1,466 nt of DNA from Naegleria gruberi (taxonomy: Eukaryota). Shown here in pieces: positions 1 to 1,466 of this stretch (within the stretch, counting starts at the first letter, position 1; the number at the start of each line of letters is the position of its first letter). The position numbers and the translations under genes are program-made. The notes below the pieces were generated by a model. The model was not told the origin of the DNA and ran no database searches. It saw only the letters and a program-made list of their open reading frames with translations. Location: the NCBI GenBank assembly GCA_000004985.1, contig GG739415.1. The stretch is one strand, 5' to 3'.

Positions 1-602
1 AGTATGAGTTGAGCTGCAGCTTTTTCTTCTTCCTCCTTCACCAGTGCAACCTCCTCCTCACTACCTTCCAGCACGAATGGAAATAGTTTCATTTCCTCCT
101 CAATTGATAATGACGAGGCATAAAAATGATTGAATGTTGAAGTATTCTCAGTATGGGAATGAATAGACCCAAATCTTATTCGATTATTAACTGCCTCGCC
201 TCCATACATGTAATTGAAAGTTCTCCTCCAACAAGCAGACCACCACACTGCACTTCTCGTTACAATAAACAAATCCACCATCTCATTAAAATATTTACAA
301 CTCAACTGCAATTCCACCAATTCATGCAATGCAAAATAATCCAACACTGAATCCCTTACCACTTGCAAAATTTCCATAAATTGAATTGGATCTTTAAGAA
401 TTTTCTCATCAATTTTACAAATTTCCTTCACCTCATCATAAACTCCATATCCATCATCTTCATCATCATCTTCGGAATCATGTATTCTATGCACATCTTC
501 CGATTGGTTCATGTTATTGTGGTTAGGAAGTTTAATTGCTGTTGAGGAATCATCCTCCTTCTCATCACTCGATTTGACCTTAAAATAATCCAATAAACCC
601 AT
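1..602 (-). CDS. Partial CDS (3' end beyond position 1). Hypothetical protein with an acidic D/E-rich N-terminal region and an F-box-like segment.
   Basis: Hand translation of the minus strand from ATG 602..600 gives an open frame of about 200 codons with no stop down to position 1. The next upstream in-frame codon set is TAG at 611..609, so 602 is the first possible start. Translation: MGLLDYFKVKSSDEKEDDSSTAIKLPNHNNMNQSEDVHRIHDSEDDDEDDGYGVYDEVKEICKIDEKILKDPIQFMEILQVVRDSVLDYFALHELVELQLSCKYFNEMVDLFIVTRSAVWWSACWRRTFNYMYGGEAVNNRIRFGSIHSHTENTSTFNHFYASSLSIEEEMKLFPFVLEGSEEEVALVKEEEKAAAQLI... A 600-nt stop-free frame is very unlikely by chance in AT-rich DNA. The segment DPIQFMEILQVV...LVELQLSCKYFNEMV loosely fits the F-box pattern (LPxEIL...LxxVCKxWxxLv). 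That motif call is by eye only. The ORF is missing from the supplied track, presumably because it runs off the window edge. Confidence 0.7.
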   Translation of the reverse strand, partial: MGLLDYFKVKSSDEKEDDSSTAIKLPNHNNMNQSEDVHRIHDSEDDDEDDGYGVYDEVKEICKIDEKILKDPIQFMEILQVVRDSVLDYFALHELVELQLSCKYFNEMVDLFIVTRSAVWWSACWRRTFNYMYGGEAVNNRIRFGSIHSHTENTSTFNHFYASSLSIEEEMKLFPFVLEGSEEEVALVKEEEEKAAAQLI

Positions 603-620
603 CTCTCTCTATCACTCTCT
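603..620 (-). promoter_or_regulatory. Pyrimidine (CT) tract on the plus strand, equal to a purine AG tract on the minus strand, abutting the ATG of the 1..602 gene. It may be a leader or ribosome-binding context.
   Basis: Plus strand 601-620 reads atctctctctatcactctct. The minus strand therefore reads AGAGAGTGATAGAGAGAG immediately 5' of the ATG at 602. There is no canonical GGAGG Shine-Dalgarno motif, so a regulatory role is speculative. Confidence 0.2.
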
Positions 621-687
621 GATTGTTTCAATTGTTGAGCAATTCAACTATCAAATCAAACAACGACAATTTTTTTGAGTTTTTAAA

Positions 688-716
688 AGATGAACTTGGC
701 ATTCACAAGTTCATTT
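688..716 (-). terminator. Candidate stem-loop between the two tandem minus-strand genes. It could be an intrinsic terminator or a 3'-end processing hairpin for the LRR gene.
   Basis: Perfect inverted repeat ATGAACTTG (690-698) / CAAGTTCAT (706-714) around a 7-nt loop GCATTCA. An A:T pair at 688/716 can extend the stem. In the minus-strand transcript the stem is followed by CUUUUAAAAA. The stem is AU-rich with only 3 G:C pairs, so it is weak. It sits about 110 nt past the LRR stop codon and about 90 nt before the ATG of the downstream gene. Confidence 0.25.
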
Positions 717-721
717 CATAA

Positions 722-735
722 AAAATTGCAATTTT
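722..735. repeat. Perfect 14-bp palindrome AAAATTGCAATTTT in the intergenic spacer. Function unknown; possibly a dimeric protein-binding site.
   Basis: The reverse complement of positions 722-735 equals itself. It lies between the LRR gene stop (824) and the hairpin (688-716). A palindrome of this size and AT content is only mildly unexpected by chance. Confidence 0.4.
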
Positions 736-823
736 CTTTACAATCAAGAGTTTAGTTTGTGAAAGAAGATTGAAAGTGTTTATTGGAAATGAGAAAAGAG
801 GTTCAAAATGATGATAATGATTA

Positions 824-1147
824 TTACCATGAAAAGGAATAATTTAGAGGAATGACATGCTCATTCAATGGTGGTTTTTCCTTAATATTGAGCTTTACTA
901 ATTGTTTCAGATTATTATAAATTAATTCTTCCACATTCGAATCAAATAAATGTCCATAAATATCAAGACTAGTTAATTGTTTCATTTCCAATATCCATAA
1001 TAGTCCTTCCCTATCCAAACCACTAAATCTGAAAGCAAGTTCTTTCAGATTTGTCATTCTACTAATGATTTCTGCTAAAGGAGTTCCATTAAATTTGTTA
1101 TTGCAACTAATGTCAAGATTGGTCAATTGTGTCATTCTACTGACCAC
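824..1147 (-). CDS. Leucine-rich-repeat protein, C-terminal intact ORF segment (107 codons). Probably the 3' part of a larger, frameshifted LRR gene.
   Basis: ORF from the track with stop TAA at 826..824. The called start at 1147 is GTG, directly after frame-internal sequence. The first ATG is at 1135..1133 (MTQLTNLDIS...). The protein shows four LRR-like units of about 25-26 aa, each beginning M(K/T)xL: MTQLTNLDISCNNKFNGTPLAEIISR / MTNLKELAFRFSGLDREGLLWILE / MKQLTSLDIYGHLFDSNVEELIYNN / LKQLVKLNIKEKPP... The unit length and Cys/Asn positions resemble the cysteine-containing LRR type typical of F-box/LRR proteins. Confidence 0.6.
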   Translation of the reverse strand: MVSRMTQLTNLDISCNNKFNGTPLAEIISRMTNLKELAFRFSGLDREGLLWILEMKQLTSLDIYGHLFDSNVEELIYNNLKQLVKLNIKEKPPLNEHVIPLNYSFSW

Positions 1148-1466
1148 TTTAGCCCACTTTCGGTAAGATTAGTTTCAGAAATATTTAGTTTTCTCAATTG
1201 TTTCATGGTTGCAATCATTTCCAATTCATAGTCCATTATTCTTGTCATACTCAAATCGAGTTCAGTTAAATTTTTCAATTGACTAATTTTTTTCACTCCA
1301 TTTCCAATCTGAAATAATGTTTAAATCCAAATCGAGACATTTCATAATGATTTAAACTCAATTTAGTTAAATTCTTCATTAGAAACAGCGAGTCAACCAC
1401 AGATTTCACACCCAAAACACAAGATGATGGATTTTTGTCAAATTTCAATTCAACAATCGAATCATG
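824..1466 (-). pseudogene. LRR-repeat gene disrupted by two frameshifts (or two assembly indels). The 5' end lies beyond the window.
   Basis: Upstream of the intact ORF the same LRR periodicity continues on the minus strand in other frames. Frame A (1320..1135, closed by TGA at 1134..1132) reads TLFQIGNGVKKISQLKNLTELDLSMTRIMDYELEMIATMKQLRKLNISETNLTESGLKWSVE*. Frame +1 (1466..1296, closed by TGA at 1295..1293) reads HDSIVELKFDKNPSSCVLGVKSVVDSLFLMKNLTKLSLNHYEMSRFGFKHYFRLEME*. The units MKNLTKLSLNHYEM, LKNLTELDLSMTRI and MKQLRKLNISETNL match the units of the intact ORF. The shifts map to about 1293-1323 and 1132-1171. No intron with usable GT..AG and correct phase restores the frame. Confidence 0.5.

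What the first reader, a model, noticed from the sequence alone, without database searches (positions are those of the whole stretch)
824..1466. LRR gene split across three reading frames: two frameshifts within about 650 nt
The same 25-26-aa LRR unit (consensus roughly M-K/T-x-L-x-x-L-x-I-S-...) is readable continuously on the minus strand only by switching frames twice, near 1293-1323 and 1132-1171. Only the last 107 codons remain as an intact ORF. This is either an eroding pseudogene or uncorrected indel errors. Gene decay in expanded repeat-protein families is common in symbionts and giant viruses. The intact downstream neighbour at 1..602 shows that the region is otherwise coding-competent.
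Basis: seen in the sequence. Interest (0 to 1): 0.55.

Follow-up and report, generated by a model that had tools for sequence, protein, structure and literature searches.

The report
Frameshifted LRR gene in Naegleria DNA
This is a leucine-rich-repeat gene of the free-living amoeba Naegleria gruberi (or a very close relative) broken by two one-base frame changes, most likely an ordinary decaying copy from a large gene family, although sequencing error cannot be excluded without reads.

Summary
On the minus strand, three open stretches tile one LRR array: 1466..1296 (57 codons), 1320..1135 (62) and 1168..827 (114). Both frame switches go the same way, each equivalent to one missing base. One inserted base in each overlap (1320..1296 and 1168..1135) gives a 214-codon reading with no stop. 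All three pieces match LRR proteins independently.

The repaired protein models as a regular strand/helix solenoid. Confidence is high across junction 2 and drops at junction 1, where the repaired unit is 34 aa instead of 24-26.

The downstream gene is 96% identical to Naegleria gruberi NAEGRDRAFT_59851, so this is nuclear DNA of a free-living amoeboflagellate, not a symbiont or giant virus.

Introns, programmed frameshifting and poly(A) slippage do not fit. No second copy of the LRR locus was found, so real lesion versus indel error stays open. I favour a real lesion (about 0.65), because:
- the window shows no 1-2-base indels against an independent assembly over 723 nt;
- no high-identity N. 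gruberi protein was found for this LRR gene.

It is ordinary and of low interest.

The parts
1296..1466 (-). LRR gene, first readable piece (frame 0), 57 codons. It is open to the window end, so the 5' end of the gene lies outside the window. It holds about two LRR-like units (IVELKFDKN...GVKSV, MKNLTKLSLN...GFKHY).
   Evidence: Searches give the open stretch. One search gives 27.9 bits against P0002, with 0 of 300 shuffles reaching it. One search gives 9.2 bits with the homologue-only unit model. Pfam finds nothing.
1293..1295 (-). TGA that ends frame 0. Translation from the upstream start would stop here.
1296..1320 (-). Junction 1: the 25-nt overlap in which the frame must change from 0 to 2 (one base missing, or 3n+1 bases deleted). 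The likeliest site is 1309..1314 (tatTTCAGatt, next to a T3 run), judged by which residues match LRR homologues on each side.
   Evidence: any single inserted base in this stretch removes the stop. GFKHYFRLE in frame 0 aligns to GFKEVAKLQ of P0005. IGNGVKKISQLKN in frame 2 aligns to N. gruberi GEGIKSISEMKQ, leaving a 10-aa gap.
1135..1320 (-). LRR gene, second piece (frame 2), 62 codons, with units starting at 1278 (LKNLTELDLS) and 1206 (MKQLRKLNIS).
   Evidence: LRR_4 at 35.5 bits, above the cut-off of 27..
1132..1134 (-). TGA that ends frame 2.
1135..1168 (-). Junction 2: the 34-nt overlap in which the frame changes from 2 to 1. It is pinned to about 1147..1150 (ctAAAGtgg). Reading ...ESGLK in frame 2 and VVSRM... 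in frame 1 keeps the 24-aa register, and one extra A or G restores GLK-VVSRM.
   Evidence: the alignment to P0003 has no gap at the junction (repaired residues 83-131); pLDDT 91-96 over residues 101-120..
827..1168 (-). LRR gene, third piece (frame 1), 114 open codons. The listed ORF is 824..1147, 107 aa from a GTG. Units start at 1135, 1057, 985 and 910, followed by a C-terminal tail.
   Evidence: Pfam LRR hits are weak on this piece alone.
824..826 (-). TAA stop of the LRR gene, followed directly by a second TAA at 821..823.
1..602 (-). Downstream neighbour (context, not part of the broken gene). It is the 5' part (200 codons) of the orthologue of N. gruberi NAEGRDRAFT_59851, which UniProt names an F-box domain-containing protein. 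It is intact in the window.
   Evidence: P0007 at 99% identity; cluster names; 98% identity to P0007 and 96% to P0010.

Best explanation
The region is the 3' two-thirds or so of a single leucine-rich-repeat gene in the nuclear genome of a Naegleria gruberi-complex amoeba. It carries two real frame-disrupting mutations, which makes it a young pseudogene or a null allele.

Shown: the gene is an array of 24-26-aa units of the strand/helix horseshoe type (Skp2 / ribonuclease-inhibitor / internalin-like). Each lesion shifts the frame by -1. Junction 2 (about 1147..1150) is a single-base loss next to an A3 run in an otherwise regular unit. Junction 1 (about 1309..1314) is either a single-base loss next to a T3 run within an unusually long 34-aa unit, or a deletion of 3n+1 bases that removed most of one unit.

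Inferred: a ribosome starting at the unseen upstream start would stop at TGA 1295..1293, after at most two LRR units in this window. The solenoid would not be made. The 107-codon ORF at the 3' end has no evident means of expression of its own. The three pieces carry no further stops, so the lesions are recent relative to neutral decay.
For: One gene in three frames:
- two one-base repairs give 214 codons with no stop.
- all three pieces hit a unit model built only from homologues.
- the alignment to P0003 has no gap at junction 2.
- the repaired protein models as an LRR solenoid (pLDDT 79, pTM 0.80). Best PDB matches are internalin A, Skp2, NLRC4 and ribonuclease inhibitor.

Origin:
- the neighbour is 96% identical to N. 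gruberi NAEGRDRAFT_59851.
- the best named LRR relative is N. gruberi NAEGRDRAFT_77817.

Real lesion rather than error:
- over 723 nt shared with an independently assembled contig (L001), there is 97.8% identity and no 1- or 2-base indel. The three coding indels are 9, 3 and 12 nt, and an A7 run agrees. The window therefore shows no sign of indel-prone sequencing.
- junction 1 does not repair to a normal unit (34 aa against 24-26, with pLDDT falling to about 53).
- the N. gruberi proteome is in the searched collection, yet the best hit was only 28% identical; the one close trace found is 14 residues (MKQLTSLDIYGHLF) at the start of the neighbour's gene model. This is consistent with the reference strain also lacking a clean ORF here.
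Against: - No reads and no second copy of the locus were available, so the lesions are unverified.
- Both shifts are the loss of one base beside a 3-base homopolymer. Homopolymer under-calling produces exactly this.
- The three pieces have no other defects across 233 codons in AT-rich DNA. That is what one expects of an intact gene with two sequencing errors.
- Long irregular units occur in this family. N. gruberi P0001 has a unit about 5 aa longer at the same position in the repeat, so the 34-aa unit need not be a lesion.
- Finding no 1-2-base indel in 723 nt only bounds the error rate at roughly 0.4% or less, which does not exclude two errors in 640 nt.
Confidence: 0.65

Rival explanations
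1. The gene is intact in the organism. The two frame changes are single-base deletion errors of sequencing or assembly (homopolymer under-calls).
For: Both shifts have the same sign, and each can be repaired by lengthening a 3-base run (T3 at 1314..1312, A3 at 1150..1148). Repair gives 214 codons with no stop. The repaired model is a confident solenoid with pLDDT 91-96 across junction 2. There are no other defects in the 233 codons.
Against: The window agrees with an independent assembly over 723 nt with no 1-2-base indels, including an A7 run. The longest run inside the LRR gene (A7 at 1293..1287) is not the error site, because the frame-0 stop lies before it. Errors at 3-base runs while 7-base runs are read correctly would be unusual. 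The unit repaired at junction 1 is abnormal. No N. gruberi protein with high identity to this LRR gene was found.
Confidence: 0.3
2. The frame changes are short spliceosomal introns of a eukaryotic gene, so the mature mRNA is in frame.
For: The host is a eukaryote with introns (established knowledge about Naegleria). A polypyrimidine-AG (tatttcag) sits at 1316..1309 in junction 1. One GT...AG candidate (1418..1309, 110 nt) would give a 26-aa unit.
Against: All 34 and 42 GT...AG candidates of length 3n+2 were enumerated. Those short enough to spare coding sequence are 8-14 nt, far below any known Naegleria intron. The longer ones remove sequence that itself scores as LRR or break the 24-aa register. 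At junction 2 the register is already exact without removing anything. The 110-nt candidate has a poor donor (GTTTTG) and would excise the frame-0 LRR units.
Confidence: 0.03
3. The gene is expressed through programmed -1 ribosomal frameshifting, or through polymerase slippage on the A7 run.
For: Both shifts are -1. An A AAA AAA heptamer exists at 1293..1287.
Against: No X XXY YYZ heptamer lies in either zero frame upstream of its stop. The A7 heptamer begins with the last base of the frame-0 TGA, so a ribosome in frame 0 terminates before it could use it. Slippage within the run likewise cannot remove that stop. No Rfam element was found. Two obligatory shifts in a repeat protein have no precedent in this lineage that I know of.
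Confidence: 0.01

Closest known systems
Naegleria gruberi LRR proteins such as NAEGRDRAFT_77817 (UniRef name 'Zer-1-like leucine-rich repeat'; P0001)
   Same: Same genus. Same unit type (M/L-K-x-L-T-x-L-x-I-S ... I-G-x-x-G-V-K-x-I-S) with a period of about 24 aa and occasional longer units. It is the best named database hit.
   Different: Only 28% identical, so it is not a close paralogue or orthologue. P0001 is an intact 339-aa protein, whereas the window gene is split across three frames.
F-box/LRR (FBXL, Skp2-like) and ribonuclease-inhibitor-like LRR domains
   Same: The predicted fold of the repaired protein alternates strand and helix. Foldseek matches Skp2, ribonuclease inhibitor, NLRC4 and internalin A at E of 1e-5 to 1e-7.
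   Different: No F-box can be checked because the 5' end lies outside the window. Sequence identity to solved structures is 14-23%.
Frameshifted pseudogenes in expanded repeat-protein families (general phenomenon)
   Same: A disrupted ORF in a lineage-expanded, fast-evolving family, next to an intact, conserved neighbour.
   Different: Pseudogene status is not verified here by reads, by expression data or by an intact orthologue.
Metagenomic protein P0003 (ENA, 338 aa, unnamed)
   Same: The highest-scoring pairwise alignment: 37% identity over 132 residues, running colinearly through junction 2.
   Different: Unknown organism. The similarity is at family level only.

Membership tests
Leucine-rich repeat (LRR) proteins | Tandem units of 20-30 aa carrying the LxxLxLxx(N/C/S)xL core | tested here: met
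   Seven units were found with a model built only from homologues, with spacings of 34, 24, 24, 26, 24 and 25 aa. Window-derived units are shown.
Leucine-rich repeat (LRR) proteins | A significant match to curated LRR profiles | tested here: met
   Pfam LRR_4 scores 35.5 bits for the frame-2 piece and 40.2 bits for the repaired protein, against a cut-off of 27. The frame-1 piece is below cut-off on its own and the frame-0 piece has no Pfam hit.
Leucine-rich repeat (LRR) proteins | Curved solenoid fold with a parallel strand in each unit | tested here: met
Foldseek matches LRR structures.
F-box/LRR (FBXL-type) proteins | An N-terminal F-box preceding the LRR array | not testable with these tools
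   The gene runs off the window at 1466, and no longer copy of the locus could be fetched.
Pseudogene | A reading frame disrupted relative to functional relatives | tested here: met
   Two -1 shifts are present. Relatives P0001 and P0003 are uninterrupted, and P0003 aligns across junction 2.
Pseudogene | The lesion is real in the genome, not a sequencing artefact | not testable with these tools
   No reads and no independent copy of the locus are available. The indirect evidence only leans towards a real lesion.
Pseudogene | Relaxed constraint: further stops, or loss of repeat consensus | tested here: not met
   There are no additional stops across 233 codons. So either the lesions are very recent or the gene is intact.
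Spliceosomal intron | GT...AG boundaries of plausible length that restore the frame and keep the protein colinear with relatives | tested here: not met
   Enumeration found no candidate that keeps the LRR register without excising LRR-coding sequence.
Programmed -1 ribosomal frameshift site | A slippery X XXY YYZ heptamer in the zero frame upstream of the zero-frame stop | tested here: not met
   none at junction 2. The only heptamer at junction 1 (A7) starts at the last base of the TGA itself.

The most novel reading that the evidence does not exclude
The LRR remnant may be raw material for gene remodelling rather than plain decay. In the reference strain NEG-M, the gene model of the downstream neighbour (NAEGRDRAFT_59851) starts with 14 residues identical to the LRR unit at 985..944. 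The join falls exactly in an 11-nt near-repeat, TTTATT(T/G)GATT, present at 950..940 and 597..587. A 353-nt deletion between these two sites would fuse the LRR frame in phase to the neighbour, creating a chimeric LRR/F-box-like gene in one strain while the other keeps two separate genes.
Probability: 0.05. Interest if true: 0.4.

Novelty: new member of a known kind. Interest (0 to 1): 0.1.

Why it matters
It matters little. If real, it is one more decaying copy in the large, fast-evolving LRR family of Naegleria, useful only as a data point on gene turnover between N. gruberi-complex strains. If it is an error, it flags the quality of this assembly. The practical gain is the correct placement of the window: eukaryotic Naegleria DNA, not viral or symbiont DNA.

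Tried and rejected
Searches for a second copy or a close relative of the LRR locus all failed:
- Exact-product look-ups of the 107-aa ORF, its ATG-started 103-aa version and the 200-aa neighbour fragment.
- Back-translated peptide scans of viral, metagenome and bacterial/archaeal genome collections.
- A degenerate DNA scan for DIYGHLFD in metagenome contigs.

The N. gruberi reference scaffold could not be fetched. Neither P0010 nor P0001 is on record with a genomic position.

A word-indexed protein search with the neighbour found nothing. Only the exhaustive HMMER search found it.

Other checks:
- Rfam gave only two sub-threshold chance hits.
- Intron, programmed-frameshift and A-run slippage readings were tested and rejected.
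- A ciliate-type code or TGA = Trp was rejected by reading the sequence. The frames hit TAA within a few codons after each TGA, and glutamine is encoded by CAA throughout.
- A recent 29-nt tandem duplication at junction 1 was considered. I counted only about 15 of 29 identical bases between the putative copies by eye, so it was rejected.
- Two literature searches and two papers gave nothing specific to this locus.

Full report

Yes. On the minus strand there are three long open stretches:
- frame 0 at 1466..1296 (57 codons, running off the window end), closed by TGA 1295..1293;
- frame 2 at 1320..1135 (62 codons), closed by TGA 1134..1132;
- frame 1 at 1168..827 (114 codons), closed by TAA 826..824.

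They overlap by 25 nt (1320..1296) and 34 nt (1168..1135). The DNA is AT-rich, about 26-34% G+C in this part of the window, so such stretches are not expected by chance. In 2000 shuffles of 824..1466, the third-longest open stretch reached 57 codons once and the longest never reached 114.

**2. Do the three pieces belong to one LRR array?**

Pfam gives LRR_4 at 35.5 bits (cut-off 27) for the middle piece, weak LRR hits for the last piece, nothing for the first piece, and 40.2 bits for the repaired whole.

A unit model built only from 47 units of distant homologues, with no window sequence, scores 47.2 bits on frame 2, 31.9 on frame 1 and 9.2 on frame 0. It places unit starts at repaired residues 30, 64, 88, 112, 138, 162 and 187.

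The first piece alone scores 27.9 bits against homologue P0002, whereas 300 shuffles of it reached at most 7.6. The out-of-frame stretches are therefore significant LRR sequence.

**3. Anatomy of the two junctions**

Both switches (0 to 2, then 2 to 1) are -1 shifts. Each corresponds to one missing base, or to a deletion of 3n+1 bases. Inserting one base anywhere in each overlap yields a 214-codon reading without a stop.

*Junction 2* can be placed at about 1147..1150 (ctAAAGtgg). Frame 2 reads ...LNISETNLTESGLK and frame 1 reads VVSRMTQLTNLDIS, which mirrors IISRMTNLKEL one unit later. The resulting unit is exactly 24 aa. The BLASTP alignment to P0003 (37% identity over 132 residues) has no gap at this point. 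The AlphaFold2 model of the repaired protein has pLDDT 91-96 here.

*Junction 1* is different. Frame 0 matches LRR homologues up to GFKHYF(RLE). Frame 2 matches from IGNGVKKISQLKN onward. The shift is therefore around 1309..1314, next to a T3 run. The repaired unit is 34 aa where all the others are 24-26. N. gruberi P0001 aligns here with a 10-residue gap. The model's confidence falls to about 53, with residues 43-46 below 50. There are two possibilities. One is a base lost from an unusually long unit; P0001 has a unit about 5 aa longer at the same place in the repeat. The other is a 3n+1 deletion that removed most of one unit.

**4. Where the DNA comes from**

The 200-codon ORF at 602..3 had no hit in the word-indexed search. 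The exhaustive HMMER search found P0007 at 99% identity. Its 90% cluster contains Naegleria gruberi NAEGRDRAFT_59851 / XP_002669805.1, which UniRef names 'F-box domain-containing protein'. In the MAFFT alignment, identity to the window is 98% for P0007 and 96% for the NEG-M protein P0010.

The best named relative of the LRR gene is also from N. gruberi (NAEGRDRAFT_77817, 28% identity). The window is therefore nuclear DNA of a strain or sibling species in the N. gruberi complex, and not NEG-M itself. Nothing related was found in viral or bacterial/archaeal collections.

**5. Mechanistic alternatives**

*Introns.* All GT...AG intervals of length 3n+2 that bridge the frames were enumerated. The ones that spare coding sequence are 8-14 nt long. 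The longer ones delete sequence that itself scores as LRR, or break the repeat register. Junction 2 needs nothing removed.

*Programmed -1 frameshifting.* There is no X XXY YYZ heptamer in the zero frame before either stop. The A7 run at 1293..1287 starts with the last base of the frame-0 TGA, so neither ribosomal nor polymerase slippage there can avoid that stop.

*Other.* Rfam shows nothing. Alternative genetic codes fail on reading the sequence, because TAA follows within a few codons after each TGA.

**6. Real lesion or sequencing error?**

This cannot be decided without reads. No independent copy of the LRR locus exists in the searchable collections.

For error:
- both shifts are one base lost beside a 3-base run;
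- the 233 codons carry no other defect.

For a real lesion:
- Over 723 nt shared with the independently assembled contig L001 (ENA ERZ929261), the window is 97.8% identical with no 1- or 2-base indel. All three coding indels are multiples of three (9, 3, 12 nt). Substitutions in the coding part are 7 synonymous to 4 non-synonymous. An A7 run agrees. The window therefore shows no sign of indel-prone sequencing.
- The longest homopolymer inside the LRR gene is not the site of a shift.
- Junction 1 does not repair to a normal unit.
- The N. gruberi proteome is in the searched collection, yet no high-identity protein for this LRR gene was found. The one close trace is 14 residues at the start of the neighbour's gene model. 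This fits the reference strain also lacking a clean ORF here.

I put a real lesion at about 0.65, sequencing error at about 0.30, and everything else at 0.05 or less.

**7. What it does**

If the lesions are real, nothing functional is expected. Translation from the unseen start ends at 1295..1293, after at most two units in this window. The repaired protein would be a Skp2 / ribonuclease-inhibitor / internalin-like horseshoe, presumably a protein-binding module. Whether an F-box precedes it cannot be tested.

**8. Verdict**

The feature is an ordinary disrupted member of a known, expanded family. Interest is low.

Noticed in passing
window 985..944 and 602..585; near-repeats at 950..940 and 597..587: The N. 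gruberi NEG-M gene model NAEGRDRAFT_59851 (P0010) starts with MKQLTSLDIYGHLF-DYFKV. Its first 14 residues are identical to the LRR unit at 985..944. The join lies in an 11-nt near-repeat, TTTATT(T/G)GATT, present in both genes and in phase with both. There is no GT donor at that point in the window. The cause is therefore either a 353-nt deletion in NEG-M or a faulty gene model.
   Followed up: partly
window 1..602 (minus strand), compared with L001:125-1261: The neighbour gene differs between strains by in-frame indels of 9, 3 and 12 nt in its Asn- and acid-rich N-terminal region. The rest of the protein is nearly invariant (7 synonymous and 4 non-synonymous substitutions). Pfam detects no F-box in this protein or its relatives, although UniRef names it as F-box domain-containing. 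By eye, residues about 77-109 (ILQVVRDSVLDYFALHELVELQLSCKYFNEMV) look F-box-like.
   Followed up: partly
L001:1301-1726 (minus strand): On the related metagenome contig, the gene downstream of the F-box-like gene encodes a DUF4326 protein (Pfam 71.8 bits).
   Followed up: no
window 784..779 (minus strand): An AATAAA hexamer lies about 40 nt downstream of the LRR gene's double TAA stop. It could be a polyadenylation-type signal or simply chance in AT-rich DNA.
   Followed up: no
window 603..823: The 221-nt intergenic spacer is conserved with L001 over the 124 nt available there, with 5 substitutions and one 5-nt indel. A purine-rich GAGAGTGATAGAGAGAG sits directly before the neighbour's ATG.
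   Followed up: no
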